A stretch of DNA of 64,000 nucleotides from a virus (IMGVR_UViG_3300020463_000014:12240-76239), one strand, 5' to 3'; shown: positions 20,519-47,301, numbered from the stretch's first letter. A program made the numbers and translations. The notes: generated from the sequence alone by a model not told the origin.

Positions 20519-21049
20519 ATGGAACAGATCATTTCAAACTTAGAAAATGTCTTTACCGATCTCGATAAAAAATTCATCAAAGGGCAAATTGAATGGGCCT
20601 TAGGACGGAAAGTAGCTCTTAAAGAATGGCGGATGGATAACATCCTCGGACATCCTTATGGCGCAAAAGTAAACGAAGGTTACAAAAATTGGGGTAGAGA
20701 TAGCTGGGGTTTCTACGAAGAAATGTTTCGGATTTGCGGTGGTAAAGGTCACTATAACACAATCACTCAAAATAACAATGCAGGAATTACTCAGATATTT
20801 GAAAAGAACTGCAAAAAAACAATTGAAGCAAGAAATGCTAAAGTAGCTAAAAAGCTGGAAAAATTTGGCATTACAGAAGTTAAAGACTCAAATATTTCTA
20901 AAACCTCAGATGGTTTTCACGGAGTCTTTAATGTAGAAACAGACAAAGGAAACAAGCGGATTGAAATCGATACAATCTTAGCTGGTGGATATAACATCCA
21001 ATGTCTCCACCTTCGTACTTTAGTAAAAATGAAAAAAGGAGTTTTATAA
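20519..21049 (+). CDS. Hypothetical early protein (C-terminal IxAGGYNIQCLHxR motif)
   Basis: 176 aa with a strong RBS. I recall this C-terminal motif from other phage hypothetical proteins; function unknown. Confidence 0.8.
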   Translation: MEQIISNLENVFTDLDKKFIKGQIEWALGRKVALKEWRMDNILGHPYGAKVNEGYKNWGRDSWGFYEEMFRICGGKGHYNTITQNNNAGITQIFEKNCKKTIEARNAKVAKKLEKFGITEVKDSNISKTSDGFHGVFNVETDKGNKRIEIDTILAGGYNIQCLHLRTLVKMKKGVL

Positions 21050-21294
21050 TGCAAGTCGTAACAGTTAGATTTACAGGATCGATGGTTGAACCATCACATC
21101 ACGATTGTCAAATCGTAGAAGGTTCTATGAATATGAGATATGATGTACGGAAAGATTCTTCCGCACTCGTATTATATGATGTACGAAAAGATGATATTAA
21201 TCCGCCAGTATGTAAAATTATCTCTCCATTTGGTAAAGATAATACATTAGAAGCATTTTATATGAATGAACAATGGAATTGTAACTTAGATTAA
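21049..21294 (+). CDS. Hypothetical protein (81 aa)
   Basis: The ATG overlaps the upstream stop (TAATG) and has an AAGGAG RBS, so this start is preferred over the track start at 21001. Confidence 0.65.
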   Translation: MQVVTVRFTGSMVEPSHHDCQIVEGSMNMRYDVRKDSSALVLYDVRKDDINPPVCKIISPFGKDNTLEAFYMNEQWNCNLD

Positions 21295-21307: not shown

Positions 21308-21333
21308 AAAGAGCTCTTAGGAGCTCTTTTTTT
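21308..21333 (+). terminator. Rho-independent terminator, possibly bidirectional
   Basis: AAAGAGCTC-TTAG-GAGCTCTTT followed by a T run, at the point where the + operon and the - cluster converge. Confidence 0.7.
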
Positions 21334-21892
21334 GTTTAATAAAAATATCGACTGGAACAGCCAGTCTGAGATTAGAATGATATGTTTTTACTAGATGATA
21401 AACATATCCTGGCATAATTATTACATCACCAGTTTTAGGTGCGTACTCAATAGGTTTAAACATTTCGGCGGTTTTACCAAAATAACCTCTATTGGCATTT
21501 GCTCTTGGATCATATGACACTAGTTCTCCACCTTTATCAATATCATCAGAAAGAACATAAAATACTGCAGCAAATTGAGCTCCAGAATGATTATGAATAT
21601 TCATTGAATATCCCTTTTGAGATCCTGTTAACCAAGAACTAAATTCGTAAGACATATCATTTAGGTCGATACTAAATACTTCTTTAAAAAATTCTGAATA
21701 TTTTTCTATAGCCAAATCTTTTAACAATGGAATTTTATCTGTAAGTGAACCACTATCGTATTCAGCCTGTGGTTTCATAATATTAGTACTAAGTAAAATT
21801 TCTTGAACTAATTCTTCACATTGGTCTAAAGTAATTTGAGTTTTGTATATTGGTGTGGACCAACACTGATTAATACCCGATTTCAACATCAT
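21317..21892 (-). CDS. 2OG-Fe(II) oxygenase (TIGR02466 / 2OG-FeII_Oxy_5-like)
   Basis: HNHSGA...AVFYV...GGEL..YDPR...PGYVYHLV...R motif pattern. Confidence 0.85.
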   Translation of the reverse strand: MMLKSGINQCWSTPIYKTQITLDQCEELVQEILLSTNIMKPQAEYDSGSLTDKIPLLKDLAIEKYSEFFKEVFSIDLNDMSYEFSSWLTGSQKGYSMNIHNHSGAQFAAVFYVLSDDIDKGGELVSYDPRANANRGYFGKTAEMFKPIEYAPKTGDVIIMPGYVYHLVKTYHSNLRLAVPVDIFIKQKKSS

Positions 21893-22274
21893 AATATCCT
21901 TTTATGTCACGAACCATACCATGAATTACCATCAATGGCCAATCTATATTGTTAAGTATACTATCGTATATTTCCTTACTATTTTCGTATGTTTTAAAAT
22001 ATGGATCATTACCGGCTAAAAGCATTGGTTCATTTAACAAATCATAAAAATCTTCGTTAAAATCTCTACTAATCCAATAAGCATAACATATTGCTACAAC
22101 ATAACTCTTGGCTGGATATAACCACTCATCTACTTTCTCATTAAAGTGTCGAATAGCATTTTTAATAATGACCTCTTGATTATCGTCAAAAACTATTTCT
22201 ACTTTATTCAAATCATCTGTATGATTTTTATTTAATCTATGATAAACTTCTTGTTTAACTTGCCATTCTTTCAT
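21870..22274 (-). CDS. Hypothetical protein of the radical SAM cluster
   Basis: 134 aa, overlaps both neighbours, no recognisable motif. Confidence 0.75.
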   Translation of the reverse strand: MKEWQVKQEVYHRLNKNHTDDLNKVEIVFDDNQEVIIKNAIRHFNEKVDEWLYPAKSYVVAICYAYWISRDFNEDFYDLLNEPMLLAGNDPYFKTYENSKEIYDSILNNIDWPLMVIHGMVRDIKGYYDVEIGY

Positions 22275-23163
22275 GATACCAATCCAATAATCCTCTATAT
22301 CCGTTACAGCTATTATTTAAATCTTTGACATATCGATAATGCTCTGTTAAGCAGTTTCCAAAATACTTACATGAGGCGCATATAGGACTTATCATTTCTT
22401 CTTTTTCTTTGTTTGTCCAATCAATGTATTGTTTCCAAGAATCCAATTCAAGAAAGAATTCTTTATCCTCTTCATCAAATTCCAAGACACCAAATTTGCC
22501 AGAAGGAGTGATGTATATATGATCATCCGAAAATGCATTGTATCTTCCTTTCACTGATTCTATAATTCTATCTTCATTTACAAATTCAAACTTCATAGTG
22601 TCTTTTAACTTAAGCCACTTTATAACAAAATCTTCAAAGTCTTTGTGGGTCACGTTATGTGCATTTGCTTGATTTATTGAATATGGTTTAATCTCAACAG
22701 ATGTAATTGACGAGCACATATTCAACATATTAATCATTTCAGATACATCTTTTTCTAGCACCTTTGGAGAAGCTAAAATCAAAACTGCAATAGGTACTGT
22801 ACTCATTAACATATTATTAAATACAAGTTCAGACTTTTCTCTTGCTTCAAAATCATATGAGACAGAAAGATATACATCATCATCAAAAAAGCCTGGATGC
22901 ATCATAGAATAATTAGTATTGATGCTAATTTCACCTGAATAATATTTTCTTATAACATCTTTAATACCATAAAAATATGACTTTTTCATTGCACCAACTT
23001 CACCACCATATAAGTCAATATGTTCTATATCTGGCACTTGAGATAGCAACTCATCTAGTTTATCAAATGAAATTTGTTTCTGATCACCAAGTTGCTTAGT
23101 AGATAGGTAGCAAAAATCACATCTAAAATTACAAAAATATGAAGGATTGATCGATACAATCAT
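22255..23163 (-). CDS. Radical SAM protein with a truncated SPASM-like C-terminus
   Basis: CNFRCDFC (CxxxCxxC), YGGE motif, C-terminal CASCKYFGNC...C. Confidence 0.9.
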   Translation of the reverse strand: MIVSINPSYFCNFRCDFCYLSTKQLGDQKQISFDKLDELLSQVPDIEHIDLYGGEVGAMKKSYFYGIKDVIRKYYSGEISINTNYSMMHPGFFDDDVYLSVSYDFEAREKSELVFNNMLMSTVPIAVLILASPKVLEKDVSEMINMLNMCSSITSVEIKPYSINQANAHNVTHKDFEDFVIKWLKLKDTMKFEFVNEDRIIESVKGRYNAFSDDHIYITPSGKFGVLEFDEEDKEFFLELDSWKQYIDWTNKEKEEMISPICASCKYFGNCLTEHYRYVKDLNNSCNGYRGLLDWYHERMAS

Positions 23164-23774
23164 TACCTAGATGGAAAGGAAATATTCATTACTACTGCAA
23201 GTCTATCTTCTTCACCATAATAAGGAGTTACTTCATGCCATACATGTGCCGGAACAATAATAATTGTATTTTTTTCAGTCTCAATAGACATTTTAGATTT
23301 AGGTCTTGTTTTTATAACCTGGTTAAATGCTGGGTCATGAAAAATTAATTTGCCTCCATCTTTATCATTATCTACACAGTCTAAATAATAAACTGCAACC
23401 ATCGAAGCACCACTATGACAATGCAAACCTTTATAATCACCATTTCTCATAAAGGGTAATCTTCCGGTGGTCTGTTCCATACGTTCTAAAATTTCAGCAT
23501 GTGTAATTGATTCATCATATTCATTAGCTAGTTTTAAAAATGATTTCGCAAAAAAATCATATAAATTTTTTATTTCATTATAATTTTTAATATTATCATC
23601 GGTAAAAAGCGGAATGTGTACTCCATCATCTCCACCATCTTGATATGAAAGACCGGCCATAGCTAAATGATTTCTAAATATTGCTTGGCATACTGAATTA
23701 AGAGTACTACTTTCTTCTTCATTAATATTATGTAACTCATGTAACATTTTTATTGGAAAAATAGTTTTTATCAT
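23163..23774 (-). CDS. 2OG-Fe(II) oxygenase (TIGR02466 / 2OG-FeII_Oxy_5-like)
   Basis: HCHSGA..VAVYYL...GGKLIFHDP...PAHVWHEV...RLAVVMN. Confidence 0.85.
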   Translation of the reverse strand: MIKTIFPIKMLHELHNINEEESSTLNSVCQAIFRNHLAMAGLSYQDGGDDGVHIPLFTDDNIKNYNEIKNLYDFFAKSFLKLANEYDESITHAEILERMEQTTGRLPFMRNGDYKGLHCHSGASMVAVYYLDCVDNDKDGGKLIFHDPAFNQVIKTRPKSKMSIETEKNTIIIVPAHVWHEVTPYYGEEDRLAVVMNISFPSR

Positions 23775-24805
23775 GCGTATTCCCTCTCATACGGCGTCAA
23801 TTGTCTATCGATGCTATTTATACTGATTATATCAGTTGCTAAAGTCTTCATATGTTTACAATGATCTTCTACCATATTATGCTGTTTTAAATCTTTAATA
23901 GTTTTTTTACATCCATTACAAATTTCAAACATTGGACAAGTATAACACGCATTTTTTAAACTCATTAAACTTAAATCTGTTGCAAGAGGTGTTGAAAACC
24001 CACCACTCATTTCATAATCAAAATCAATAGCCTTATCTAAATCATCACCAAATGCACCACATGAATAGTAGTCACCTTCAGGTTGAAGTGTTCGAATGCC
24101 AGAATCACATGTTCTTGTCTGTGGACATATAGTAGATTCTCCTCTTAATCGTACCATCATCTGTTGAGTGTTATGTTCCCAATCGCTTAATCCAGCTTTC
24201 CATATTTCAACATAACGTTCATATATTTTTGATAATTGATATGGAGCAGACTGAGAACCTGATGCCATGGCATAATTTACTTTACAGACTACATCCATTT
24301 TTTTTGCAAGTTCAACTGTCTTAATATGAGTATCTTCATTCTCTTCAACAATCACTGCTATGAATGATGGTCTATATCCAACATGTTCTAGCATCGCATC
24401 TGAACACTTCCAAAAATCTTCTTCTGTAAACTCACTATAATCACCTTTTAATCTTCCTCCACCATATTGAAATGATGTAGCTACACCAATTCGAGGATGG
24501 TTAAAAAGTTCTTTCCATTTCATTGGTTTCATAAGAAATGGATATAAATTTGTTGTAAGTGATATTGTTGCCGGCAGATCATACTTATCAAGATACTCTA
24601 TAATTTTCCAATAGTAATTTGGTTTCATCATTAATGGATCGCCACCATTAACAATAATTGTTTGAGTATCTGGAAAACGTTTTAAAAACTTAAATATCTT
24701 ATTTAAATCAAGAGTAGCAGTATTATCTTCAAACGTAATTTTAGATGATGAACAAAATGAACATTTAAAATTACACAATTCTGTTGGTTTGACAATTAGG
24801 TCCAT
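23771..24805 (-). CDS. Radical SAM/SPASM protein (anSME/peptide-maturase-like)
   Basis: IVKPTELCNFKCSFC, NGGDPL, and a SPASM-type C...C...GDYYSC...CYTCPMFEICNGC...C. Confidence 0.92.
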   Translation of the reverse strand: MDLIVKPTELCNFKCSFCSSSKITFEDNTATLDLNKIFKFLKRFPDTQTIIVNGGDPLMMKPNYYWKIIEYLDKYDLPATISLTTNLYPFLMKPMKWKELFNHPRIGVATSFQYGGGRLKGDYSEFTEEDFWKCSDAMLEHVGYRPSFIAVIVEENEDTHIKTVELAKKMDVVCKVNYAMASGSQSAPYQLSKIYERYVEIWKAGLSDWEHNTQQMMVRLRGESTICPQTRTCDSGIRTLQPEGDYYSCGAFGDDLDKAIDFDYEMSGGFSTPLATDLSLMSLKNACYTCPMFEICNGCKKTIKDLKQHNMVEDHCKHMKTLATDIISINSIDRQLTPYEREYA

Positions 24806-25341
24806 GGCGAATTATTAACTTTAAACCCAAAATTCATAGTGATTCTATGCATATCTGGATCTCTGAAATGTTCAACTCTATGTTCAAACTGTTTATCTTG
24901 GCTTCCTACTACTACATCGTATTTTTGAGGTAAATGAAAGGCTGTGATTCTATTATTCTGTGATATATTTCTAAACATAATTTCACCACCAGCGTCTTTA
25001 TTCATATCAGTAAAATATAAAAGAAACATTATATTTGCACCTTCACAAAAATCATTATGCCAATTACACGAAGTTTGTTCAGTGCCATTCCAACAGTGAT
25101 AATAAATCAAATCTTTTTTTTCTGAATATGGTCTTAAATACTGATTAAAAAGATAATCAGCAGTCATTAGCATTTTCTTTCGCATACCCAATATATAATA
25201 ATTTAAAGGGAATCGATAATCTTTTCTATTACCAATACCTCTAAGCCATTTTATATTAGGAATAGTATCTTCTAAATATTGAAACGCTTGAACGTTATTT
25301 TCTGTGTAAAATCCATCATCCATTTTCCAACCATTTTTCAC
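24796..25341 (-). CDS. 2OG-Fe(II) oxygenase (prolyl-hydroxylase-like)
   Basis: WHND (HxD), LLYF...GGEI, HRVE and a distal Arg (RITMNF). Confidence 0.85.
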   Translation of the reverse strand: MKNGWKMDDGFYTENNVQAFQYLEDTIPNIKWLRGIGNRKDYRFPLNYYILGMRKKMLMTADYLFNQYLRPYSEKKDLIYYHCWNGTEQTSCNWHNDFCEGANIMFLLYFTDMNKDAGGEIMFRNISQNNRITAFHLPQKYDVVVGSQDKQFEHRVEHFRDPDMHRITMNFGFKVNNSPWT

Positions 25342-26483
25342 AGCATTTTTACCTTTTGTCTAAATCCATATGATAGATCATCTTCACCATCGCGTTTTGG
25401 TTTAAATCCTTTTGTTTTTTTAACGTAGTTAAACGTTTCTTTAAAAACACATTCTTCCATATCGTTATGATCACCTGGCATATCAGCTTTTACAAAGCAT
25501 GTGAATGGACAGTTTTCATAATATTCACACTCAAAACAATTATATTTTTTTAAAAACTTTTCTACCATCTCTCCTGTTTCAAAGGGTGTTTCACCAGTTT
25601 TTTTATCTCGCTGATATGCTACACCACAACATCCACCGGGTGATGAACCATCAGGCTGAATAGTTATTGAATTACCTCTTGTACACATCATTGCACCAGT
25701 TTGATTCAATGGATCATGAAACGCATCCATGTTTTCACAATCAGGATAGTTATCCACTAAGTATTTGTTAAACGCTAATAGCTCACTATCTTTAGGAATT
25801 AATTTTGCATCTGCTTTAATTAATGGTGATGGCATATAAGCATCAAAATCAACTGGAAAGTTTTTATACAAATAATCAAAAGTGCTTTTATCGTTACTCT
25901 TTATAATTGTTTGTATATTTTGGCTAGTAGTAACAATTGAAACGTTTCTAATATAATCTTTAAAAGTCTCAACATTTTCTAAGAATATTTCTAGTTGACC
26001 TTTATTAAATCTACCTCTTGGATCATAAGAAGTTGAAAGCTTTATATCATGCTTATTACAAAAGTCCATAACTTTATCTGAATTTTTTTTATCAAACATA
26101 AAATTAGTAAGATAATTAAAATAAATTCTTTTGTTGCCGATGTTAATCTTGGATCTAACTAAATTCATAAATTCTTCATATACATCTAAAAAGCCTTTTT
26201 CAATCCATAGATCTTCAAATAATTCTCCACCTAATAGATGTAATTTATAGTCTTTTGATCTTGGCGAATTGTTAATAAATTTAGCAACAGTATCGCTTTT
26301 TGCTAAAATTTCTTCTCGAGTAGCTCCAACCATTGAGTTATGATCTTGCGGACAGAACACACATTTTAAATTACAATGTTCAAAAAATATTATAACAAGC
26401 TCACTTGATCGAGTAATCTTGCTTCCTAAAATTTTGTATATATCAAAATCAAGTGGAGCTGGATTAATAGGTGCTACAGACAT
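25338..26483 (-). CDS. Radical SAM protein with a SPASM-like Cys-rich C-terminus
   Basis: CNLKCVFC, LGGE, C-terminal C...CC...CFECEYYENCPFTC...C. Confidence 0.9.
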   Translation of the reverse strand: MSVAPINPAPLDFDIYKILGSKITRSSELVIIFFEHCNLKCVFCPQDHNSMVGATREEILAKSDTVAKFINNSPRSKDYKLHLLGGELFEDLWIEKGFLDVYEEFMNLVRSKINIGNKRIYFNYLTNFMFDKKNSDKVMDFCNKHDIKLSTSYDPRGRFNKGQLEIFLENVETFKDYIRNVSIVTTSQNIQTIIKSNDKSTFDYLYKNFPVDFDAYMPSPLIKADAKLIPKDSELLAFNKYLVDNYPDCENMDAFHDPLNQTGAMMCTRGNSITIQPDGSSPGGCCGVAYQRDKKTGETPFETGEMVEKFLKKYNCFECEYYENCPFTCFVKADMPGDHNDMEECVFKETFNYVKKTKGFKPKRDGEDDLSYGFRQKVKML

Positions 26484-28144
26484 TCTTTACTTACCTCTGA
26501 CATAATTATATGTCTATTTTTTTCTATAAATTTATTTATAGTATTTGCTCTAAACTCTTGATTTAAAACTTTAATGCTTTTTGGTTGAGAATTTGGATTA
26601 AATATATCTCTTATTTCAGAATGTATATCATCCCATCTATCTAATTTACTTATAACTTCATATGCTTTTTTAGTAAAGACTGACGGTGATAGACTATTTT
26701 CAAGCATAGGATAAAAGTGCTGCAGTAAATAATTTCCAGCACTATTCATAAACCACATTTCATGCATTTCTTCAGTTGTAAACGAAAAGCATGATGATAT
26801 TGTTTTAAAATACGATTTTTTATTTTTATACAAATTATTCCAACTATCTATCCCTTGTTCATCTGCAATATCAGTGTAAACTTCAACGGTTCGAATATCA
26901 TATTTAATTTTATATTCCTGAGAATTAAGCGCTGAATCTGGAAGAAACATATAATCATGTCTGTAAGAACCAAACGATTTAAAATTCCAGATATATTCCA
27001 TTTCATTATAAAAGTCATCTATTGTAGAACCTGGCATTGCAAGGATCATTTCTAAATTAGGTATTGGAAACCCGTGCTTTGAACATTGCTCATTAATGTG
27101 TTTACTTAATTCTAATTTATCTTCTGTATTTAAATCAACTCTTTCAGCTATTTTCATTGCAATGTCAGAACTGCTTTGAATAGACACTGATGGAACTATC
27201 GATATATTGGCCATCTCACTCCACATATCTTTTCCATTTTTCATATTTGGAGAAGTATAATTTGTTCCAACGATTTCAAAATACTTATCAATTAATTTTT
27301 TTCTTCTATTTAAATCCTTAGATTTCATGGTAGAAATATCAGTTAAATTAAAACCATTTGTCCAAGCGTATTCGAATATTTCAAAGTCTCTTTCAAAAAA
27401 GGCTCCAAAGTTTGCATCATTTAAATAAGCAGATCTATAACCGGCTTTTAGCATAGCATTGATATCACGTTTCACTATGCCCAAGGATTTCTTATAAATC
27501 TTTGTATTAATACCTCCACCCCATTCGCAGAACACACACTTATAAGGACAACCTCTTGTCGTCTCTAAAACAATAAACGGTTCCATTTTATTATTACGAG
27601 CGTATTTAAGTAATTTTGTAAGATATTCTAAATGATCTTCGTATACTGAATAATCTTCTTTTGACAAATCATGTATTAATTTTACATCAGATCTTAATTC
27701 CCATGGAATACTTGTTGGATCTATTCTGTTTTCAATAAACTGATCGATAAGCTCAGCCATAAATGGCTCACCTGGTTTAGTAGGTCTACAAATTAAATCG
27801 TACTGAGGACGTGATGTTAATAGTTCTGGTTCATTGGTTCCAATATGTGGACCACCTAAAACTAGTATTTTTTCTGGATATTTATTTTTAATTTTATTAG
27901 AAATTTCATCACATATCATATAGTTCCAAGTATAAGAAGAAAACATAATTATATCTGCTTCGATTATATCATCTATTACTTCATCATAAGATTTATAGCT
28001 ATTCCATTTATATGGTGATTCTAACCACTTTACTTTTTTACTATATTTGCCAAAACGAGAATAGTAACTTTGCATTAATAAAAATGTAAAGTTATTTGCT
28101 AGTGACCAGTCAGCGTGAGGAGGATTAATAAATGCTATAATCAT
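26474..28144 (-). CDS. Radical SAM protein with an N-terminal cobalamin-binding-like domain (class B type)
   Basis: FSSYTWN...ILVLGGPH (B12-binding-like Rossmann segment), ETTRGCPYKCVFCEWG, DANFG, ILAMPGST. Confidence 0.85.
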   Translation of the reverse strand: MIIAFINPPHADWSLANNFTFLLMQSYYSRFGKYSKKVKWLESPYKWNSYKSYDEVIDDIIEADIIMFSSYTWNYMICDEISNKIKNKYPEKILVLGGPHIGTNEPELLTSRPQYDLICRPTKPGEPFMAELIDQFIENRIDPTSIPWELRSDVKLIHDLSKEDYSVYEDHLEYLTKLLKYARNNKMEPFIVLETTRGCPYKCVFCEWGGGINTKIYKKSLGIVKRDINAMLKAGYRSAYLNDANFGAFFERDFEIFEYAWTNGFNLTDISTMKSKDLNRRKKLIDKYFEIVGTNYTSPNMKNGKDMWSEMANISIVPSVSIQSSSDIAMKIAERVDLNTEDKLELSKHINEQCSKHGFPIPNLEMILAMPGSTIDDFYNEMEYIWNFKSFGSYRHDYMFLPDSALNSQEYKIKYDIRTVEVYTDIADEQGIDSWNNLYKNKKSYFKTISSCFSFTTEEMHEMWFMNSAGNYLLQHFYPMLENSLSPSVFTKKAYEVISKLDRWDDIHSEIRDIFNPNSQPKSIKVLNQEFRANTINKFIEKNRHIIMSEVSKECL

Positions 28145-28177
28145 ATTTCATTCTATACATTACAAATTAAAAAATAT

Positions 28178-29308
28178 TTAAACTGTTACATATTTAGCAA
28201 TAGTTGTTTTATCAGAAACAGAATTAGCATCCAGCAGTGAATGAATTAAATAATGATTTACAGTTTCAAGTTCTAATGCAAAGAATTTTTCAGGTTCTTT
28301 ATCATCTGATGATTCAATTAAAATAAGCTTATCTAATAGTTCATCTGTTAATTCAGTATTAATTGCTGGTAAGAATTCTAATATGCTATCATCTCTTAAA
28401 GTAAAATCAGACCATTGACTTTCTATAATAGCTACAAACTCTTTAATAGTATTAAGATCTGAATCAGAAATATTTTCGAATATTACATTATCACTACTAG
28501 AAGCGCCACTTAGATATTTTATAGACCACATATCGTCTTTAATAAACAGTTGAGCAAATTTAGAAGTATCTGTAAAAATGTCATTAATATTATTTAATGT
28601 GTAAGTTTTGTCTAAATTTAATTTATCAGCAAAAGATTTAGTTAAGAAATGTTGGAAAAATATTTCCTTTAATTCGTAAAGATATTGTTCAAACACTTTT
28701 TTCAGCAAAGGTCTGACTACGCCTTTTAACTCTGCTTTTGAAGATTTGTCATTAAGATAATTTGCTAGTAGATGTTCAACACTTATTGTGCTTTTATATT
28801 TTGCCATAAATGCTTTTTTCTTGGCAGCAGAAGGAGCTTTAACACTATCATAAATGGTATTGAAATTTTCTACTTTTAAAATTTCACCAGATCCTAATTT
28901 TGCATTATTACTTGAAAACCTGCCTCTAAAAAATGTATTAAATTTAAAAGCATGGGCTTTTACTAATGATTCTACTGAATCAACTTTCGGAGTTTTTAAA
29001 ATAAATTTATACCAAGTAGACATAATAAATTGAAATGCTGCACTATCACAATAAACAACGATTCTTTTATTTGTAGAATCACATTTGGCAGCTAATTCAT
29101 CAAAAAGAGTTGTAGCATCTTTAAACGTTTTATCTTTTCCTAGAATATCATTCCATTCAAGTCCATATGCAATGAGTTGACCAGATAATATTTTTTGAAG
29201 ATCTTCTAAAAGATTAAAACCGTTACTTTGCGATACAACAATACGATCAAAATTTGGATCGATGATATTATCTGTTGTTACATAAATCTTTTTAAACAGA
29301 TGTATCAT
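28178..29308 (-). CDS. Hypothetical protein of the radical SAM cluster
   Basis: 376 aa, ATGA-coupled to the upstream gene, no confident motif. Confidence 0.8.
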   Translation of the reverse strand: MIHLFKKIYVTTDNIIDPNFDRIVVSQSNGFNLLEDLQKILSGQLIAYGLEWNDILGKDKTFKDATTLFDELAAKCDSTNKRIVVYCDSAAFQFIMSTWYKFILKTPKVDSVESLVKAHAFKFNTFFRGRFSSNNAKLGSGEILKVENFNTIYDSVKAPSAAKKKAFMAKYKSTISVEHLLANYLNDKSSKAELKGVVRPLLKKVFEQYLYELKEIFFQHFLTKSFADKLNLDKTYTLNNINDIFTDTSKFAQLFIKDDMWSIKYLSGASSSDNVIFENISDSDLNTIKEFVAIIESQWSDFTLRDDSILEFLPAINTELTDELLDKLILIESSDDKEPEKFFALELETVNHYLIHSLLDANSVSDKTTIAKYVTV

Positions 29309-29952
29309 AACTGTTCTCCTGTGGCGATAGCGCTTGTTATTAAAAACATTGGGTTATTAACATTCGCCCAATAACTAAATAGATTATTTCCTTTAAACAT
29401 ATACTCATTAAAGTATGATTTATAATATGTTTTATGATGTTCAATTACATTGGCATAAAATAGATAAAAGCTTTCATATTTAAGTAAATTTACAAAATTT
29501 ATTCCAGTTAGATCTTTTGTGTCATCTTCTGGAAATGATTTAACATAGTCTTTTAATTCATCGCATTCAACTGTGTACAAATTATAAAGCGAAAGTGAAT
29601 CTAATTTCTTAGCCCAAGTAGTAAGTATTTCAACGTTATCATCAATAAAATCTTTTTCTATTAATTCACTAATACCTTTCATCTGTAATAATAAACTAAT
29701 TACTCTTTCTTCAAGGATAGGAATACTTATAATAAAATTAGCTAAAAGATATTCTCTAGTAAGATCATCAAAATCTTTTTGATCAGTAAAACCAATATTA
29801 CATGGCAATTCCAGATTACTGAGATATGTTAATAGCTTTGTTCCCTGCAATTGTGAATTTTCATAATCAACTATATAAAAAGTTTGATCATCTTCAAAAT
29901 ACAATTTCAAATCTTCAATACTAAATGGTGCAGTAACATCAATAACTTTCAT
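29305..29952 (-). CDS. Hypothetical acidic protein of the radical SAM cluster
   Basis: The ATG at 29952 overlaps the TGA of the 187-aa gene (ATGA), so it is preferred over the track start at 29976. Begins MKVIDVTAPF. Confidence 0.8.
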   Translation of the reverse strand: MKVIDVTAPFSIEDLKLYFEDDQTFYIVDYENSQLQGTKLLTYLSNLELPCNIGFTDQKDFDDLTREYLLANFIISIPILEERVISLLLQMKGISELIEKDFIDDNVEILTTWAKKLDSLSLYNLYTVECDELKDYVKSFPEDDTKDLTGINFVNLLKYESFYLFYANVIEHHKTYYKSYFNEYMFKGNNLFSYWANVNNPMFLITSAIATGEQL

Positions 29953-30512
29953 CTTCTTCCTCTCGAGCCATGGCAACTGCTATGACAACTTGCATGACAA
30001 ATATTAATATTTACAGTAACGGTATTGGAAACTAAATTATTAAAACGTGTCTGTAAGTCTGTAAATTTAGCTTCAAGACCAGAAGCACTAATTTGAGTAC
30101 CAGCAGTTAAAGTAACTCCAGCTGCAGATAACGTTTGTGCATAACTACTGTTTAAATAAGCTTTTGCTGTTTGATTAAAAATTTGTCCAGGATTAGGATA
30201 TGTTCCTGTATTACCACCAGGACCTGTTACTGTTCGAATTGCATTTAAATTTCTAATTTGACTATACGCAGCGGTTTCATTTTCAATTGCAGTATTGATA
30301 ACAGAAGCAGTGATTGGATTTTGATTTATATCAGCTCCAGTAATTCCAATGCTTCTACCAGCAGTTGTTCCACCAAAATATGATGTAGCAAATCCACTAA
30401 ACGGAACTGAATTGGTACCCCAAACAATACCAGAGTTTGCACTTGCCGGCGCAAAATCCGCAAATCTATCTATTATATTCTGTGCGTTAATTGGACTTGT
30501 TAATGTAGCCAT
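29949..30512 (-). CDS. Virion-like protein with a C-terminal (CHxS)3-RGRR motif; putative substrate/precursor of the cluster
   Basis: T/G/N/A/S-rich body. All Cys and His lie in the last 16 residues (CHASCHSSCHGSRGRR). Has a GAGGA RBS and its own TATAAATA promoter. The CDS is secure; the substrate role is inference. Confidence 0.75.
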   Translation of the reverse strand: MATLTSPINAQNIIDRFADFAPASANSGIVWGTNSVPFSGFATSYFGGTTAGRSIGITGADINQNPITASVINTAIENETAAYSQIRNLNAIRTVTGPGGNTGTYPNPGQIFNQTAKAYLNSSYAQTLSAAGVTLTAGTQISASGLEAKFTDLQTRFNNLVSNTVTVNINICHASCHSSCHGSRGRR

Positions 30513-30538
30513 TTCATTCCTCTTTTGTTATATACGTG

Positions 30539-30546
30539 TATTTATA
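30539..30546 (-). promoter_or_regulatory. T4-type late promoter TATAAATA internal to the cluster
   Basis: Exact motif overlapping the upstream rSAM stop codon, about 27 nt before the ATG at 30512. Confidence 0.7.
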
Positions 30547-31561
30547 CATGTTTTGCGAGTTCCATCATTAAACTTTTTGGTGCACCACAAATATCTCCAT
30601 CCCATCCTAATTGATGACAATCACCTCCACAAAATCTAGATACAGGGCAAGATAAACAATTAGGATTACGCATTTTTTCTTCTAATATAGTACGAATTCT
30701 TTTTGGACTTTTTAACAATGTATCAATTGAATCATCTAAACTTCCAAAAGCTTGTTCAGGCGCACTATTTGGGCAGCCTGCAATAGTTCCATCTCCATTT
30801 ATGGTAAATAGTTTTTGTTCACAATCTCTACAAAATGTTCCACACGTAGTCATAGTCTTTTCAAATTTGGCATATACATTTTCTAAAAAGTCATTTTCAA
30901 ACCAATCCCTTGCTCCGTGCTTTTCACTTTGCATGTGCATTTTTAAAAAATATTCATCAAGTTCTTTATTGCTTGGAAATATTTCTGATGCTTCTCGGGC
31001 ACTACCATTATTAGTTAGTCTTTCCAGTGAAACTTCTTGTACACCAAGTCGCCGGCACCATCTTAATAATACTATAGGATCTTTTGCAAGTGTATCTTTT
31101 GTAAGACTAATAAACAAACGAATAGTAACACCGTTTGCTAAAAGTGTTTTAACATTTTTATGCCAAAGATTATATTGGTTTTTATTTTCAAATCGAATCT
31201 TACGATCCCACGATGTGCCAAGTCTATTTCCAAGAGGACCTTTAATAAAATCCATATGTTGATCTTTTAATTTGAAAACTAAATTAGTTGTAGCACCCCA
31301 CGACATTTGATTCCATAAACCATCACATGCATCATATACCTTTCGCATTTGGCCAACCGGTACAAGAAACGGTTCACCACCATGAAATTCCATATGTATA
31401 GAATCTTGTGTTGCAGGTTTTTCTTTTCTAAATCTATGAATCCAGTCAACTAGCTTATCAGTATTCCAATAAATCTTTTGACCGCTTCTTCCACTGGTAA
31501 AACAGTGTGCACAATTAAGCTGACATGTTTCTGTTGTTTTGAGATACATCAGCCAGTTCAT
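30542..31561 (-). CDS. Radical SAM/SPASM protein (anSME/peptide-maturase-like)
   Basis: YLKTTETCQLNCAHC, FHGGEP, SPASM CRDC...GTIAGCPN...CLSCPVSRFCGGDC...C. Confidence 0.93.
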   Translation of the reverse strand: MNWLMYLKTTETCQLNCAHCFTSGRSGQKIYWNTDKLVDWIHRFRKEKPATQDSIHMEFHGGEPFLVPVGQMRKVYDACDGLWNQMSWGATTNLVFKLKDQHMDFIKGPLGNRLGTSWDRKIRFENKNQYNLWHKNVKTLLANGVTIRLFISLTKDTLAKDPIVLLRWCRRLGVQEVSLERLTNNGSAREASEIFPSNKELDEYFLKMHMQSEKHGARDWFENDFLENVYAKFEKTMTTCGTFCRDCEQKLFTINGDGTIAGCPNSAPEQAFGSLDDSIDTLLKSPKRIRTILEEKMRNPNCLSCPVSRFCGGDCHQLGWDGDICGAPKSLMMELAKHV

Positions 31562-32042
31562 TATTAATTTTATCCTCTGTATAATTTTCTAAACCAAAGC
31601 TTAACGTCAATGCTTCATCTTTATTTAATGCTTGATGAGGTGTATAAGCTGGTATATGTATATATTCTCCTTGGATAATAGTCACTGGCTTATTATCAAT
31701 TATTAAAGATTTAGATCCTTCACAGCAATATATAACAACATCATCTGGATCAGTATGCATATCGAAAGAATAAGATCCAGCCGCTGCAAAAAATAAATGA
31801 CATGTTACATGCTGTTCATGTTTCCAATCAGTTTTTATTTTCCAACAATATTCATATATTGTTGAATTAAAGTTTTCCATACGTTCGATTTTTATAGAAT
31901 GGTTTTGTTTTTGCACTTTGCAAAAATCACTGAAACTAGTAATTAGCTGTTCACGACCCTGTTCATCTATAGCATAAACCATATTTTGTTCATACATATG
32001 ACTCGCAGTAAGTGCAGATATGAGTTGAGATTTATTAATCAT
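31515..32042 (-). CDS. JmjC/cupin-4-like oxygenase
   Basis: SFDMHTDPDDV (HxD), EGSK, YIHIPAYTPHQA and LSFG, the pattern of ROX/YcfD-type JmjC cupins. Confidence 0.8.
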   Translation of the reverse strand: MINKSQLISALTASHMYEQNMVYAIDEQGREQLITSFSDFCKVQKQNHSIKIERMENFNSTIYEYCWKIKTDWKHEQHVTCHLFFAAAGSYSFDMHTDPDDVVIYCCEGSKSLIIDNKPVTIIQGEYIHIPAYTPHQALNKDEALTLSFGLENYTEDKINNELADVSQNNRNMSA

Positions 32043-32084: not shown

Positions 32085-33644
32085 TTACACTTTAAGGATA
32101 CATTCTATCAATTTTTCTTCATCTACAGTAGACGATTCTAAAGCTACACCTACCATCATAGCTCCATTAAATTCTTTACTTGCTCGGCCATTATGGTGTG
32201 TATATACTGGATCACCTTTATGAACTCCACCAATAACCCTTACTGGAACTCTTCCCTTAAGACCTAAAGCTTGACCAGGAGCGTCTGCATTCATTAAATA
32301 AGCAGGTTGAGCTGAAATTACGCCGACTGGAATTCCGCTTGATGTGCAAGGAGTAGTTTCTTCAGTTTTATTAAATGACGCCATCATTACTGTTCCAACT
32401 GGATGCTCTTCACTTGTAGTATATTTTTCTGCAAGGTCAGCATAATTTGCAGTTTGAGCATTACCAGCAACTGTACCGGCAGATAATGTTTGTGTTGATG
32501 GATTATACATTAAATGCCCATTATCAGTATCAATATAAGGTCTTTGATAACCTGTACCATTATTATCGCTAAATAATACTTGGTAATTTACATCGTCATT
32601 TTTTTCATCAACTTTTACAAAATCGGCCTCGCCTCCAGAAACTGTACAAGCACCAGTATTTGCCATTGTAACATGACCAGATAATGCTGCAGTAGTAAAA
32701 CCTGAGCCATTACCAATTAGAATTTGAGTGTCTGCTACTATAATATCTGAAGGATCTGATGCTGAAGAACTATTTCCAACTTTTACTGAATTTGCTGGCA
32801 TATTAGCAAGCTTATCATTAGTCACAGCATCATCAGTTATTTGACCTGTTATTACTTGTCCTGCCTGAATACCTCCAGATGCTTGGCGACCAATTACAGT
32901 ATTAGTTCCTGCTTGTACAGAGCCAATATCACCAGCAGCTGATCTACCAATAACTGAATGATCTGGTATTGCTAAATCTCCTGGATCACCACTAGTACCT
33001 GCCTGGCGAGTTTTTATTGTATATCCTGCCATATTAGCAAGCTTAGCATTAGTTACTTGATCATCTGATATCATATCAGTTTGAATTTGCACTTCTTCAA
33101 CTGTGCCCGCTGTTGTTTTGCCAAGAACTCTATTTGCAGTTACAATGTCTTGCATTTTATCATAGGTCACAACATCAGGCTGAATTGTGACCACGCCGGC
33201 GTTTGTCATAAGAACATCTTGAGATAAAGCGGTAGATGTAAAACCAGTTCCATTACCAATTAAAATTTGTTCGTTAGTAACTGCCTTATTTGATGATGCT
33301 CCAGTAGTTCCTGCATCTCTTACTTTAACAGTGTTTGCTGGCATATCTTCTAATTTAAGACCAGATGCTTCTTGAGTTAAACCGTGACCACCTGCTACTG
33401 AAAATGTTCCACTTGAATCTCCAGTAAGGTTTCCACCAACGCTAGTCTTTAAAATTCCATTTCCTGCATTATAGTTTCTTCGCACTGCTTTACTAAAATT
33501 TAAGGCTGTTACTATACTTGAATCATGGCCAGCATAGTCACTACTAAGATTATCTAGATCACCGATCTGAGCAGCAATAGTATTAGATTTTACTCTAAAA
33601 GTGTTAATTGTATCACTTAAATTTATAACTGTCTGTCTAGCCAT
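32085..33644 (-). CDS. Tail fibre-like protein with a C-terminal intramolecular-chaperone/peptidase G2-like domain
   Basis: Internal repeats (VTNxKLANM; ILIGNGxGFTxxALS) and C-terminal YADLAEKY...GVISAQPAYLMN...LKGRVPVRVIGGVHKGD. Confidence 0.75.
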   Translation of the reverse strand: MARQTVINLSDTINTFRVKSNTIAAQIGDLDNLSSDYAGHDSSIVTALNFSKAVRRNYNAGNGILKTSVGGNLTGDSSGTFSVAGGHGLTQEASGLKLEDMPANTVKVRDAGTTGASSNKAVTNEQILIGNGTGFTSTALSQDVLMTNAGVVTIQPDVVTYDKMQDIVTANRVLGKTTAGTVEEVQIQTDMISDDQVTNAKLANMAGYTIKTRQAGTSGDPGDLAIPDHSVIGRSAAGDIGSVQAGTNTVIGRQASGGIQAGQVITGQITDDAVTNDKLANMPANSVKVGNSSSASDPSDIIVADTQILIGNGSGFTTAALSGHVTMANTGACTVSGGEADFVKVDEKNDDVNYQVLFSDNNGTGYQRPYIDTDNGHLMYNPSTQTLSAGTVAGNAQTANYADLAEKYTTSEEHPVGTVMMASFNKTEETTPCTSSGIPVGVISAQPAYLMNADAPGQALGLKGRVPVRVIGGVHKGDPVYTHHNGRASKEFNGAMMVGVALESSTVDEEKLIECILKV

Positions 33645-47200: not shown

Positions 47201-47301
47201 CCTGATGCATCTTCAAAACCAGTTCCTCGAACAGTTCCTAATAGAAGAGCTCTTCTATCTCGTGCAGCTACATTTTCAAGTTCTTTATTATTTAAACTCA
47301 T
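44254..47301 (-). CDS. gp5 C-terminal-like spike protein (beta-helix) with degenerate peptidase M15-like domain(s)
   Basis: GH...YDDTIGSERI...H..G..VEI.PDG followed by V/I-x-G beta-helix repeats. C-terminal HGLGWGGDF M15-like segment in which the Zn ligands appear replaced. Confidence 0.7.
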   Translation of the reverse strand: MSLNNKELENVAARDRRALLLGTVRGTGFEDASGENPTADYFFEQGTEKSTRGVSIHNLETDVSTVIGREDISLTHSTPSDAAQVSIKTTPKGHVALYDDTIGSERILLKHLCGAGVEIKPDGSVIVNARGNRVDLITGNHHLFTEGNGNLTYSGDLTMNIGGDFNLDVGGNYNLKVGGHWIVNVFGSYTKRIIGMMAETIQKVKSTTVLKDVTNTFLGKLSTSVKEDYEFIVRGESDYNHKGSTTLTSQTEISLTSPNINVVAQDLTATGNTGTIGGENIVMYNYNMFTGHSINAIDTVTTKSVYATDTLDTQTINSTRVNSTSMHATTFHGSLNGTALQANITAAQNYADPDPGGGTTGTPYPYTSSTQDAIAVTAANTTKGPKKWPTDAASDYGPSGLDNLKPLPTETTTSVFLDKSAYMVQSVFVDDDDGIYNYMDKTVTTAGVTDKPLTTSEIRIKLRNPANKSNLAFVNECIANDTLSSSYSEKVPEHVNRILGKKTQSRMGSNTIGAADPGAKTIRYKPTDTSKKQIKFIVPEAQYNPNNIKDIKMGTLLSPGIPVAKFFPNSETMNDMSQVERHRMARNLVATVKLLKLVKVPKFMEGFNIKIVEGVQKLGTTDVSAPSDSITKLSATGRVVGFEVRNSRSGDLSPGVTFDLAAYLKDNAEYDKLIMSYDTYEVDELSSGEKILYASIIVVMPEIPQNYNVTFKQEIETHFNNEVQSTKDLIEIALSETGSIELEEPTTPAITDEGLKKIKTKNGFYTFVSAAVWNNFQAFINKLEGPDYNYEIKTLDGYATTTQRYSNLPDEFTGEDLWTSNASGLGININISQNLKGTTLVHDFPNAISFIARAHGLGWGGDFSVYKDASLFSMRDEEGGSIPAPRTNKIYQTAETKAEAAKPVEEKKQVPEPKPKKDRIETKLPFGTYGSVEELTAAAKAGKHAPGSILIYHDVDGEQEWFKKYGNYGYDFGPTEYRVYISRAIPSNHLYMAAEIGSGQEEFMLGQTSLNWSLS

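What the first reader, a model, noticed from the sequence alone, without database searches (positions are those of the whole stretch)
21317..32042. Phage-encoded RiPP-like protein modification cluster: 5 radical SAM enzymes and 4 Fe(II) oxygenases around one virion-like gene
Seen: 13 co-oriented genes, most overlapping their neighbours (ATGA/TAATG), inserted among tail-fibre genes. Four encode CxxxCxxC radical SAM proteins with SPASM-like Cys tails (22255, 23771, 25338, 30542). One encodes a B12-domain-type radical SAM (26474), three encode 2OG-Fe(II) oxygenases, one a JmjC cupin and three unknowns. Established: SPASM radical SAMs are mostly peptide/protein maturases (sactipeptide and ranthipeptide thioethers, triceptide cyclophanes, anSME), and JmjC/2OG enzymes hydroxylate protein residues. 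Inference: this is a dedicated pathway that chemically modifies a structural protein of the virion. No protease or transporter is visible, which fits a modified protein retained on the particle better than a secreted RiPP. I know of no characterised phage system like it.
Basis: partly seen in the sequence, partly recalled or inferred. Interest (0 to 1): 0.95.

Follow-up and report, generated by a model that had tools for sequence, protein, structure and literature searches.

The report
Phage radical-SAM kit for Cys-His tail
A marine T4-like phage carries, among its baseplate and tail-fibre genes, a conserved set of radical-SAM and iron oxygenase enzymes that always travels with a small late protein ending in an invariant Cys-His repeat, so the enzymes very probably modify that protein chemically in a way nobody has yet described.

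Summary
Window 21317-32042 (minus strand) carries 13 co-oriented genes, and 10 of 12 junctions overlap. They encode four paralogous SPASM-type radical SAM enzymes, one B12-type radical SAM, a JmjC-like cupin, three 2OG/Fe(II)-type oxygenases (the third shown by motif only), three unknowns and a 187-aa protein.

That protein ends in (C-H-x-[S/N/A])x3-R-x-R-R. In 41 homologues with 25% mean column identity, only these 9 residues are invariant.

The tail gene follows the rSAM339 orthologue in 76 of 80 viral loci; the other 4 are cut by contig ends. It does the same in 5 of 5 jumbo phages examined. In the reverse test, 45 of 46 evaluable long-form tail genes have that enzyme nearby. The kit also sits in Bdellovibrionota chromosomes without fibre genes in view.

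My reading is a self-contained radical-SAM/oxygenase system that modifies this C-terminal tail. The chemistry is unknown, and virion residence is only indirectly supported.

It belongs to no characterised family. The nearest analogues are the HXS defence system, CrpA/CrpC, His-cyclophane synthases and anSME. Papers I found list these genes only as accessory. This scan has noted the same kit before on other DNA.

The parts
32085..33644 (-). 519-aa fibre-like protein directly upstream of the cassette; a linked neighbour, not an enzyme
   Evidence: Pfam DUF5907 scores 28.1 vs 27. The C-terminus matches phrog_22593 and tail-fibre phrog_19602. A homologue lies in 51 of 52 fully covered loci and in 17 of 18 short-form tail loci.
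31515..32042 (-). 175-aa cupin / JmjC-like Fe(II) oxygenase
   Evidence: Cupin_2 scores 32.4 (cutoff 27.2) and JmjC_2 scores 30.5 (cutoff 22). H96, D98 and H136 are kept in 68 of 68 sequences. Present in 50 of 52 loci.
30542..31561 (-). 339-aa radical SAM/SPASM enzyme (rSAM339), the fixed upstream partner of the tail gene
   Evidence: TIGR04085 SPASM scores 35.7 vs 27. The best family matches are DynA 45.7, anSME 42.6 and PapB 41.3, all far under their cutoffs. C13, C17 and C20 plus 8 further Cys are kept in 72 of 72 sequences. The best solved relative is CteB at E 7.5e-7.
30539..30546 (-). TATAAATA, the T4-type late promoter motif, 26 nt before the tail gene's ATG and overlapping the rSAM339 stop codon; AGAGGA follows
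   Evidence: Sequence read. 11 of 14 such motifs in the window lie 10-90 nt before a same-strand gene start, against 0.5 expected under random placement. The motif precedes the tail gene in 16 of 59 distinct upstream regions, against 0 of 63 for rSAM339.
29949..30512 (-). 187-aa tail protein, the proposed substrate; residues 172-187 (nt 29952-29999) are the (CHxS)x3-RGRR tail
   Evidence: No Pfam or NCBIfam family. Only C172, H173, C176, H177, C180, H181, R184, R186 and R187 are invariant in 41 sequences. The model has pLDDT 83.4 with a folded body and a disordered tail. No solved-structure relative was found.
29305..29952 (-). g04, 215-223 aa, unknown function; its ATG overlaps the tail gene's TGA (ATGA)
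   Evidence: Matches phrog_20767 at 4e-54. The start at residue 9 follows, and the overlap was read. Present in 52 of 52 loci and in both long bacterial loci. The model has pLDDT 93.1. The best fold match is Z 4.8 over 53 residues.
28178..29308 (-). g05, 376 aa, unknown function
   Evidence: No family in Pfam, NCBIfam or PHROGs. Present in 46 of 52 loci. Counterparts I read from a similar N-terminus and length, not detected by BLAST, are RSL2 ORF069 and a 364-aa ORF in L090.
26474..28144 (-). 556-aa B12-binding-type radical SAM, a likely C-methyltransferase; optional part of the kit
   Evidence: KedN5 family match at E 1e-22, 80 bits vs cutoff 700. C199, C203 and C206 are kept in 32 of 32 sequences. 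Present in 30 of 52 loci.
25338..26483 (-). 381-aa radical SAM/SPASM-like enzyme (rSAM381)
   Evidence: Fer4_12 scores 22.6 vs 22. Matches phrog_1802. C37, C41 and C44 plus 6 further Cys are kept in 58 of 58 sequences. Present in 52 of 52 loci.
24796..25341 (-). 181-aa probable 2OG/Fe(II) oxygenase, identified by motif only
   Evidence: No Pfam or NCBIfam hit. H95-x-D97 and R166 are invariant and H154 is kept in at least 90% of 28 sequences. The best PDB profile match is the prolyl hydroxylase PHD2 at E 0.33, which is not significant.
23771..24805 (-). 344-aa radical SAM/SPASM-like enzyme (rSAM344)
   Evidence: Radical_SAM scores 36.6 vs 29.5. DynA scores 52.1 and the SPASM model 21.7, below its cutoff of 27. 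C11, C15 and C18 plus 9 further Cys are conserved. Present in 50 of 52 loci.
23163..23774 (-). 203-aa 2OG/Fe(II) oxygenase
   Evidence: 2OG-FeII_Oxy_5 scores 40.0 vs 27. Matches phrog_81.
22255..23163 (-). 302-aa radical SAM with a short Cys tail (rSAM302)
   Evidence: Radical_SAM scores 29.8 vs 29.5. C11, C15 and C18 plus 4 further Cys are conserved. Matches phrog_1802. Present in 49 of 52 loci.
21870..22274 (-). g12, 134 aa, unknown function
   Evidence: Matches phrog_20737 at 5e-37. Present in 43 of 52 loci. A homologue lies in the Bdellovibrionota locus L090.
21317..21892 (-). 191-aa 2OG/Fe(II) oxygenase
   Evidence: 2OG-FeII_Oxy_5 scores 40.9 vs 27. Matches phrog_81.

Best explanation
The 13 genes form a self-contained post-translational maturation system. 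Its substrate is the 187-aa late protein, specifically its disordered C-terminal tail (C-H-x-[S/N/A])x3-R-x-R-R.

Inferred mechanism:
- The four conserved SPASM-type radical SAM paralogues (339, 381, 344 and 302 aa) abstract hydrogen atoms in or next to the tail.
- They install covalent changes on the Cys and/or His residues. Candidates are thioether (ranthionine- or sactionine-type) links, His-to-C-beta links across the three-residue H-x-S unit, or Cys oxidation.
- The JmjC-like cupin and the variable 2OG oxygenases hydroxylate residues. The invariant His and Arg are candidates.
- The optional B12 enzyme C-methylates.
- g04, g05 and g12 are kit-specific helpers of unknown fold.

The product stays on the folded protein. 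In phages it most likely works with the fibre/baseplate apparatus, probably as a particle component.

What is shown: gene content, conserved catalytic residues, and strict two-way co-occurrence of tail and enzymes. What is inferred: that the tail is the substrate, the type of chemistry, and the virion location.
For: Linkage of tail and enzyme:
- The tail gene lies directly after the rSAM339 orthologue in 76 of 80 viral loci. The other 4 have under 300 nt downstream.
- The same holds in 5 of 5 cultured jumbo phages that I opened, out of 12 phages (15 records) hit: Atu_ph07, RSL2, RSF1, pPa_SNUABM_DT01 and Phosso.
- Reverse test: among 80 loci found by the tail's DNA pattern alone, 45 of 46 long-form tail genes with at least 1200 nt upstream have the rSAM339 orthologue, and 60 of 61 have some kit radical SAM.

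Selection sits on the tail:
- Only 9 tail residues are invariant in 41 sequences with 25% mean column identity.
- The bodies vary from 116 to 364 aa.
- The repeat codons differ, so this is not a DNA repeat.
- The tail is disordered on a confident fold.

The enzymes look active and of the protein-maturase kind:
- All cluster Cys and the HxD...H ligands are conserved.
- The best family matches are DynA, anSME, PapB and HxsB. The best solved relative is the thioether maturase CteB.

The core is fixed in 52 fully covered loci: tail 52, g04 52, rSAM381 52, cupin 50, rSAM344 50, rSAM302 49.

Late and structural hints:
- The tail gene has its own TATAAATA.
- The fibre-like gene is present in 51 of 52 loci.
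- The Atu_ph07 paper (passages read) says most of its 131 virion proteins lie in clusters that include 'CDS 170-215'. gp170 is the tail protein in RefSeq numbering.
- Contigs from RNA libraries of two studies cover the cassette, and one spans the rSAM339-tail junction. This shows presence only.
Against: - No modification has been observed. All links are genomic.
- Every named-family score is far below its cutoff, for example DynA 45.7 vs 450, anSME 42.6 vs 349 and HxsB 34.8 vs 370. The chemistry therefore cannot be read from homology.
- Three Cys and three His could simply bind metal.
- The kit occurs in Oligoflexia and Bdellovibrionota contigs next to AhpC, AhpF, an ABC-2 transporter or an RRM protein, with no fibre-like gene in the fetched flanks. 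A virion role is therefore not universal.
- In 11 of 18 short-form tail loci, no radical SAM lay within the short stretch held.
- Exact TATAAATA precedes the tail gene in only 16 of 59 distinct upstream regions, and the motif is not enriched in the window overall (14 observed vs 15.6 expected).
- The Atu_ph07 virion table was not seen. Neither record I opened labels gp170 as structural.
Confidence: 0.62

Rival explanations
1. The matured tail protein is a free effector, not a particle part. It would be a phage- and bacterium-borne counterpart of the HXS defence, or another envelope- or DNA-directed effector, for example for superinfection exclusion or host takeover. It would work through its basic, His-rich modified tail.
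For: - HXS is a protein effector with HxS repeats, matured by two radical SAM enzymes, that binds DNA electrostatically (PMC13128918; abstract and sections 9-10 read).
- The tail is basic and carries H-x-S units.
- The kit stands alone in Bdellovibrionota and Oligoflexia chromosomes.
- The pelagimyophage paper suspects coinfection-avoidance genes in this region (passages read).
Against: - The tail protein matches no HxsA model, and none of the unknowns matches HxsD. HxsB and HxsC score 34.8 vs 370 and 27.7 vs 267.9.
- PADLOC gives only generic radical-SAM-core hits.
- The position beside a fibre-like gene is fixed in 51 of 52 loci.
- Late-promoter placement is an odd fit for exclusion, which by my recollection is usually an early function.
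- By eye, the tail protein's N-terminus shows no signal-peptide-like stretch.
Confidence: 0.15
2. The tail is a core peptide, and the folded body is a large leader. The enzymes would build a small excised product, such as a cofactor, metallophore or antibiotic-like peptide, in the manner of PQQ or mycofactocin (recalled analogies).
For: - The core sits at the C-terminus beside SPASM radical SAM enzymes and several oxygenases.
- The Oligoflexia version is a 104-aa protein with a variant tail, and an ABC-2 transporter gene lies about 3.3 kb upstream of the rSAM339 gene, about 4.5 kb from the tail gene.
Against: - No protease or exporter appears among the 13 genes.
- The body folds confidently (pLDDT 83.4) and is kept in at least 524 protein clusters.
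- Bodies reach 364 aa.
- The kit is linked to a fibre-like gene.
Confidence: 0.08
3. The Cys/His tail binds a metal or an iron-sulfur cluster, and the protein is a helper for the radical SAM enzymes (electron donor, cluster carrier or scaffold). Their real substrate would be something else, such as the neighbouring fibre protein.
For: - Invariant residues are Cys, His and Arg only.
- Radical SAM enzymes need reductants (established knowledge).
- Short-form tail genes sit right after fibre-like genes in 17 of 18 loci.
Against: - The body is poorly conserved and of no known redox fold.
- Copy number varies from one to two per locus.
- The tail gene has its own late promoter while the enzymes do not.
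- By my recollection, the period-4 C-H-x-S motif is not a known cluster-binding motif.
Confidence: 0.08
4. The enzymes modify phage DNA or make a nucleotide or cofactor. The tail protein would be an unrelated neighbour.
For: - Phage thymidine hypermodification uses a radical SAM enzyme (PMC8989533, passages read).
- Jumbo-phage papers guess at DNA repair or metabolism for these genes.
- Weak N-terminal matches to MoaA, NrdG and viperin.
Against: - Those matches cover only the shared CX3CX2C core.
- The hypermodification enzyme is photolyase-like and travels with 5-HMUDK, aGPT-Pplase and PLP enzymes. No family named as a kinase, DNA glycosylase or PLP enzyme matched any of the 13 proteins.
- The two-way linkage with the tail gene would be unexplained.
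Confidence: 0.04

Closest known systems
HXS antiphage system (HxsA effector with HxsB, HxsC and HxsD; Li et al., Nat Commun 2026, PMC13128918; abstract and sections 9-10 read)
   Same: A folded protein, not a short peptide, carries His-x-Ser repeats rich in basic residues. It is matured by more than one radical SAM enzyme plus small partner proteins, and a site-specific mass change sits in an HxS unit.
   Different: - Here each unit starts with an invariant Cys, there are exactly three units, and they lie at the extreme C-terminus followed by R-x-R-R.
- The kit has four to five radical SAM enzymes plus oxygenases.
- No HxsA or HxsD model matches. HxsB and HxsC score 34.8 and 27.7 against cutoffs of 370 and 267.9.
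- It is found in lytic phages beside fibre genes, not as a bacterial defence island.
CrpA/CrpC of Methanococcus voltae (ACS Bio Med Chem Au 2026, PMC13692751; abstract read)
   Same: A SPASM radical SAM enzyme installs thioether (ranthionine) cross-links on a Cys-rich protein substrate encoded next to it.
   Different: - That system has a single enzyme with a recognition domain, while the phage enzymes start directly at the CX3CX2C motif.
- The hosts are archaeal.
- There is no His/Arg motif, no oxygenases and no link to a virus.
- I made no sequence comparison with CrpC.
Radical SAM cyclophane synthases acting on three-residue motifs: triceptide enzymes HtkB and HaaB (PMC11499958, abstract start seen) and dynobactin DynA (function recalled)
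   Same: These are SPASM enzymes that link an aromatic or His side chain to the C-beta of the residue two positions on. H-x-S/N/A fits that spacing. DynA is the top NCBIfam match for rSAM339 and rSAM344.
   Different: - Scores are far below cutoffs: DynA 45.7 and 52.1 vs 450, and YhhB 28.4 vs 445.
- Those substrates are short secreted peptides with leaders and proteases.
- No Cys is required there.
Anaerobic sulfatase-maturating enzyme (anSME, TIGR03942)
   Same: A minimal SPASM enzyme without a recognition domain acts on a full-size protein. The last tail unit, C-H-x-S-R, has the Cys-to-Arg spacing of the sulfatase motif C-x-P/A-x-R (motif recalled). anSME gives the second-best full-length match for rSAM339 (42.6 bits).
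   Different: The score is far under the 349 cutoff. The Pro/Ala position is mostly Gly or Ser here. There are three repeats and four paralogous enzymes, and no sulfatase.

Membership tests
HXS (His-Xaa-Ser) system | HxsB and HxsC equivalog models (TIGR03978, TIGR03977) reach their cutoffs | tested here: not met
   The best HxsB score is 34.8 vs 370 (rSAM339). The best HxsC score is 27.7 vs 267.9 (rSAM344).
HXS (His-Xaa-Ser) system | [quoted passage not shown] | tested here: not met
   The tail protein and the three unknowns match no NCBIfam model at E <= 0.1, apart from one chance-level hit for g05. The tail protein has no Pfam domain.
Radical SAM/SPASM enzymes | CX3CX2C motif plus a C-terminal Cys-rich domain for auxiliary clusters (TIGR04085) | tested here: met
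   rSAM339 scores 35.7 vs 27 on TIGR04085 and has 8 extra invariant Cys. rSAM344 (21.7, below cutoff) and rSAM381 meet the feature by conserved Cys only (9 and 6). rSAM302 has 4, so it is partial.
Anaerobic sulfatase maturase (TIGR03942) | Equivalog score of at least 349.45 | tested here: not met
   42.6 for rSAM339 and 38.7 for rSAM344.
Cyclophane-forming (triceptide, dynobactin or darobactin) maturases | Equivalog or subfamily models DynA, YhhB, AmcB, FxsB, GrrM/OscB or DarE reach their cutoffs | tested here: not met
   DynA 45.7 and 52.1 vs 450; YhhB 28.4 vs 445; FxsB 22.6 vs 370; GrrM/OscB 20.3 vs 310; DarE 32.3 vs 650.
Cyclophane-forming (triceptide) systems | The substrate carries repeated three-residue aromatic/His-x-x motifs | tested here: inconclusive
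   H-x-[S/N/A] occurs three times in 76 of 76 evaluable tails. Whether it is cross-linked is unknown.
Thioether (ranthipeptide or sactipeptide) maturases | PapB or related equivalog cutoffs, and a Cys-rich core | tested here: not met
   PapB scores 41.3 vs 340. The solved thioether maturase CteB is the best PDB relative, at only E 7.5e-7 over residues 6-118. Three invariant Cys are present.
Class B (B12-binding) radical SAM methyltransferases | An N-terminal B12-binding domain followed by a radical SAM core | tested here: inconclusive
   Both Pfam domains fall just under their cutoffs (28.6 vs 32.1 and 26.1 vs 29.5). The KedN5 family match is E 1e-22 but 80 bits vs 700. CX3CX2C is invariant in 32 of 32 sequences.
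2OG/Fe(II) oxygenases (PF13759) | Pfam gathering score and the HxD...H triad | tested here: met
   The 191-aa and 203-aa proteins score 40.9 and 40.0 vs 27. The 181-aa protein meets the motif only, not the model.
JmjC/cupin oxygenases | Pfam JmjC_2 or Cupin_2 gathering score and the HxD...H metal ligands | tested here: met
   30.5 vs 22 and 32.4 vs 27.2. H96, D98 and H136 are kept in 68 of 68 sequences.
RiPP biosynthetic gene cluster in the strict sense | A short precursor with a leader, a protease that removes the leader, and an exporter | tested here: not met
   The substrate is a 116-364 aa protein with a folded body. No protease or transporter family appears among the 13 genes.
Virion structural protein | Detected in purified particles | not testable with these tools
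   I have only the Atu_ph07 text, 'CDS 170-215'.

The most novel reading that the evidence does not exclude
A virus-particle protein carries RiPP-type chemistry. Radical SAM enzymes would turn the invariant Cys/His tail into a rigid, cross-linked, basic 'warhead' on the fibre/baseplate apparatus, which takes part in gripping or breaching the Gram-negative envelope. Predatory Bdellovibrionota would hold the same device for attacking prey. This would be the first enzyme-installed radical cross-link known on a virion.
Probability: 0.3. Interest if true: 0.9.

Novelty: new variant of a known kind. Interest (0 to 1): 0.8.

Why it matters
Lytic phages with tight genomes spend about 10 kb on four or five oxygen-sensitive radical SAM enzymes and several oxygenases for one small protein. 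They have kept that arrangement across marine T4-like phages, phiKZ-like and Rak2-like jumbo phages, and predatory bacteria. The product must therefore matter.

If the reading is right, this is a new substrate motif and probably new radical chemistry on a full-size protein. It may also be a new kind of virion or host-recognition component.

The question is directly testable, because several kit-bearing phages are in culture and the tail is a short, defined peptide. It would also explain the 'radical SAM cassettes' noted without interpretation in the host-recognition region of pelagimyophages (PMC7029224, passages read).

Tried and rejected
DNA and protein searches that found nothing:
- Megablast of the whole cluster against cultured phages: no match.
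- tblastn of the tail protein: no match. tblastn of the B12 enzyme: one chance-level hit.
- ESM Atlas for g05 and g04: no usable hit.
- Word-index search for longer, fused forms of the tail protein: none. The tool calls this weak evidence.

Fold searches:
- Tail protein: Foldseek against the PDB gave a best E of 0.72. BFVD returned only uncharacterised homologues. VIA-align wide gave a best Z of 3.5.
- g04: Foldseek best E 0.33 and VIA best Z 4.8 over 53 residues.
- These results do not show that the folds are new.

Other tests:
- Complex prediction of g04 with the tail protein gave no answer (score 0.00, controls not run). It is not evidence either way.
- PADLOC gave only generic core hits to pVip and PDC-M51A.
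- The fibre-like 519-aa protein has no sequence relative in the PDB.
- RNA-library contigs cannot rank genes or prove transcription. Bins without cover mean nothing.
- By eye, I looked for a link between B12-enzyme presence and tail sequence and saw none. I ran no formal test.

Tree of rSAM339 orthologues:
- It had 41 rows. I hand-picked 28 of the 80 viral loci.
- The three window paralogues used as outgroups have branch lengths of 10.
- The three Bdellovibrionota rows form one clade (98/92) next to Atu_ph07 and Phosso (100/98).
- The root and the direction of transfer are not resolved.

Sources I could not see:
- The RSL2/RSF1 description paper is not held.
- Supplementary tables are closed: Atu_ph07 Table S5 and RP31 Table S3. 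They may settle virion presence.

Literature searches that found no description of the kit.

Correction: my running tally of 60 + 16 loci was wrong. The recount gives 63 strict + 13 variant + 4 truncated.

Full report
**What is there**

One search shows 13 co-oriented ORFs on the minus strand between 32042 and 21317. Ten of the 12 junctions overlap. The two gaps are 29 nt before the tail gene and 33 nt before the B12 gene.

The window is a baseplate and tail-fibre region of a T4-like myovirus. It holds baseplate wedge, gp5-like hub, tube cap and tape-measure families. A 4508-aa protein matches tail-fibre PHROGs, and a 519-aa fibre-like protein lies directly upstream of the cluster. The record is a 76,239-base viral contig, estimated 37% complete, and it holds only this one tail gene.

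**The enzymes**

All four small radical SAM proteins (339, 381, 344 and 302 aa) fall in one phage family, phrog_1802. They are therefore paralogues. CX3CX2C is invariant in each. The number of further invariant Cys is 8, 6, 9 and 4 respectively.

Only rSAM339 passes the SPASM model (35.7 vs 27). The best named matches are peptide or protein maturases:
- DynA: 45.7 and 52.1
- anSME: 42.6
- PapB: 41.3
- HxsB: 34.8

All of these are far below their cutoffs of 340-450. The best solved relative is the thioether maturase CteB (E 7.5e-7).

The 556-aa protein is of the B12-binding radical SAM type (KedN5 family, E 1e-22; both Pfam domains just under their cutoffs). Two proteins pass 2OG-FeII_Oxy_5. 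The 181-aa protein has only the H-x-D...H...R motif and an insignificant PHD2 match. The cupin passes JmjC_2 and Cupin_2, with its three metal ligands in 68 of 68 sequences.

**The tail protein and its linkage**

The 187-aa protein has no family. It ends in C-H-x-S three times, then R-G-R-R.

Its partner rSAM339 has 41-51% identical orthologues in 15 records, which represent 12 phages. All are jumbo phages of Agrobacterium, Sinorhizobium, Ralstonia, Burkholderia or Pseudomonas. I opened five of them, and in all five the next gene ends in the same tail.

A scan of viral contigs with the rSAM339 alignment confirmed 163 relatives and kept 80. Among these 80 loci:
- 63 have a strict (CHxS) tail gene just downstream.
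- 13 more have variants with Asn or Ala at the fourth position.
- The last 4 end within 300 nt of the enzyme gene.

So 76 of 76 evaluable loci carry the tail gene.

Among 61 long-form tail genes, 45 of the 46 with at least 1200 nt upstream have the rSAM339 orthologue. Eighteen short-form tail genes (116-140 aa, mostly twins) instead sit with a fibre-like gene (17 of 18), and a radical SAM was in view in 7 of 18.

In 41 tail proteins with 25% mean column identity, the only invariant positions are the three Cys, the three His and the three Arg. The repeat codons differ. A profile search found at least 524 protein clusters, all called hypothetical.

**The kit as a unit**

Counts in the 52 loci with full flanks:

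| Gene | Present in |
|---|---|
| Tail protein | 52 |
| g04 | 52 |
| rSAM381 | 52 |
| Fibre-like gene | 51 |
| Cupin | 50 |
| rSAM344 | 50 |
| rSAM302 | 49 |
| g05 | 46 |
| g12 | 43 |
| B12 enzyme | 30 |

There are 1-4 oxygenases of the 2OG type per locus.

The genome collection gave 41 loci, of which five hold true orthologues. The Rickettsiales, Vicingus and Bdellovibrionota contigs carry tails; the Bdellovibrionota contig has two in tandem. An Oligoflexia contig has a 104-aa protein with a variant tail, and a Bacteriovoracia contig is too short to judge. The other 36 loci hold only distant radical SAM enzymes, and none has a tail.

The Oligoflexia and Bdellovibrionota loci have bacterial neighbours: AhpC, AhpF, an ABC-2 transporter and an RRM protein. 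They show no fibre-like gene in the fetched flanks. They do keep homologues of several helpers: g04 in both, and g12 and a g05-like gene in the Bdellovibrionota locus. The kit is therefore self-contained.

In a tree, the three Bdellovibrionota enzymes form one clade beside Atu_ph07 and Phosso. The root is unreliable.

**Structure**

The tail protein folds confidently (pLDDT 83.4, pTM 0.76) into an alpha/beta body, with the last 16 residues disordered. I found no solved relative. BFVD returned only uncharacterised phage homologues, including Atu_ph07 gp170. g04 folds very confidently (pLDDT 93.1) and also has no clear relative.

**Timing and location**

A TATAAATA motif overlaps the rSAM339 stop codon 26 nt before the tail gene's ATG.
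- The motif is not enriched in the window overall (14 observed vs 15.6 expected).
- However, 11 of the 14 sites lie 10-90 nt before a same-strand gene start, against 0.5 expected under random placement, and 0 of 20,000 trials reached 11. That control ignores local base composition.
- Across related loci, the motif precedes the tail gene in 16 of 59 distinct upstream regions. The figures are 0 of 63 for rSAM339 and 0 of 62 for g04.

Contigs from RNA libraries of two studies cover 25-28 of 30 bins at roughly 96-97% identity. This shows presence only.

The Atu_ph07 paper (passages read) reports 131 virion proteins, most of them in clusters that include 'CDS 170-215'. In RefSeq numbering gp170 is the tail protein, and the protein accession numbers of the GenBank record run in the same order. 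I could not see the table.

**How it most likely works**

I commit to maturation of the tail by the kit, for three reasons:
- Selection falls on a disordered C-terminal motif.
- That motif is locked to one SPASM enzyme in both directions.
- Four orthologous radical SAM groups, a cupin and three unknowns travel with it across unrelated phage lineages and bacteria.

The chemistry is open. The candidates are Cys thioethers (CteB, PapB and CrpC analogy), His-to-C-beta links over H-x-S (DynA, HtkB and HaaB analogy), and Cys oxidation in the C-H-x-S-R unit (anSME analogy). On top of these would come hydroxylation by the cupin and 2OG enzymes and optional methylation.

Particle residence is plausible but unproven. 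The bacterial loci show that it is not a requirement of the kit.

**Comparison and novelty**

The kit is a member of none of the named systems (see the membership tests). It works most like HXS and CrpA/CrpC, in which radical SAM enzymes finish a full-size protein.

The papers that I found list these genes as accessory, or as 'radical SAM cassettes', without a substrate: FLC6, S13, pPa_SNUABM_DT01, RP12/RP31 and the pelagimyophage study (passages read). My other literature searches found no description.

This scan has reported the same kit on other DNA many times. One note says that part of the claim fell on a later check. I therefore keep the virion part at under even odds.

Noticed in passing
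L127, L152, L160, L165, L179, L184, L188, L198, L200, L202, L203 (viral contigs): A second architecture exists. Twin small tail proteins (124-140 aa each) lie directly after a fibre-like gene, with no radical SAM in the short stretch held. One contig holds both this pair (L203) and the long form beside rSAM339 (L022).
   Followed up: partly
L088:11075-11389: The Oligoflexia version of the substrate is only 104 aa and ends in a variant tail: three Cys but only one His, a Pro-rich spacer, then S-R-S-R-R. Its neighbours are AhpC, AhpF, an ABC-2 transporter and an extra radical SAM on the other strand.
   Followed up: partly
window 6130-19656 (-): The 4508-aa fibre protein holds two long arrays of short repeats, of the 'DSAYISQLDVDSAFISRL' and 'DSDYIKSIA' kinds, near its N- and C-terminal thirds.
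   Followed up: no
window 20519-21294 (+): Two plus-strand ORFs (176 and 97 aa) have no family in Pfam or PHROGs for the first (the second was not searched). They sit in opposite orientation between the giant fibre gene block and the cassette.
   Followed up: no
L002:15042-16191 (RSL2) and L083:2498-3415 (RSF1): In RSL2, a dihydrofolate reductase gene and a second ORF that I read as DHFR-like from its sequence (not tested) are inserted between kit radical SAM genes. In RSF1, a GIY-YIG nuclease gene sits between the virion structural gene and the cupin.
   Followed up: no
window 23815-23822 and 26533-26540 (-): Two more TATAAATA motifs lie inside the 3' ends of rSAM344 and the B12 gene. They are 40 and 49 nt before the starts of the 203-aa oxygenase and rSAM381, so they may be internal late promoters.
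   Followed up: partly
window 44254-47301, 47298-49532 and 49543-50649 (-): Two separate proteins match gp5-type baseplate hub/lysozyme families, and a 744-aa protein with an amidase domain lies between them.
   Followed up: no
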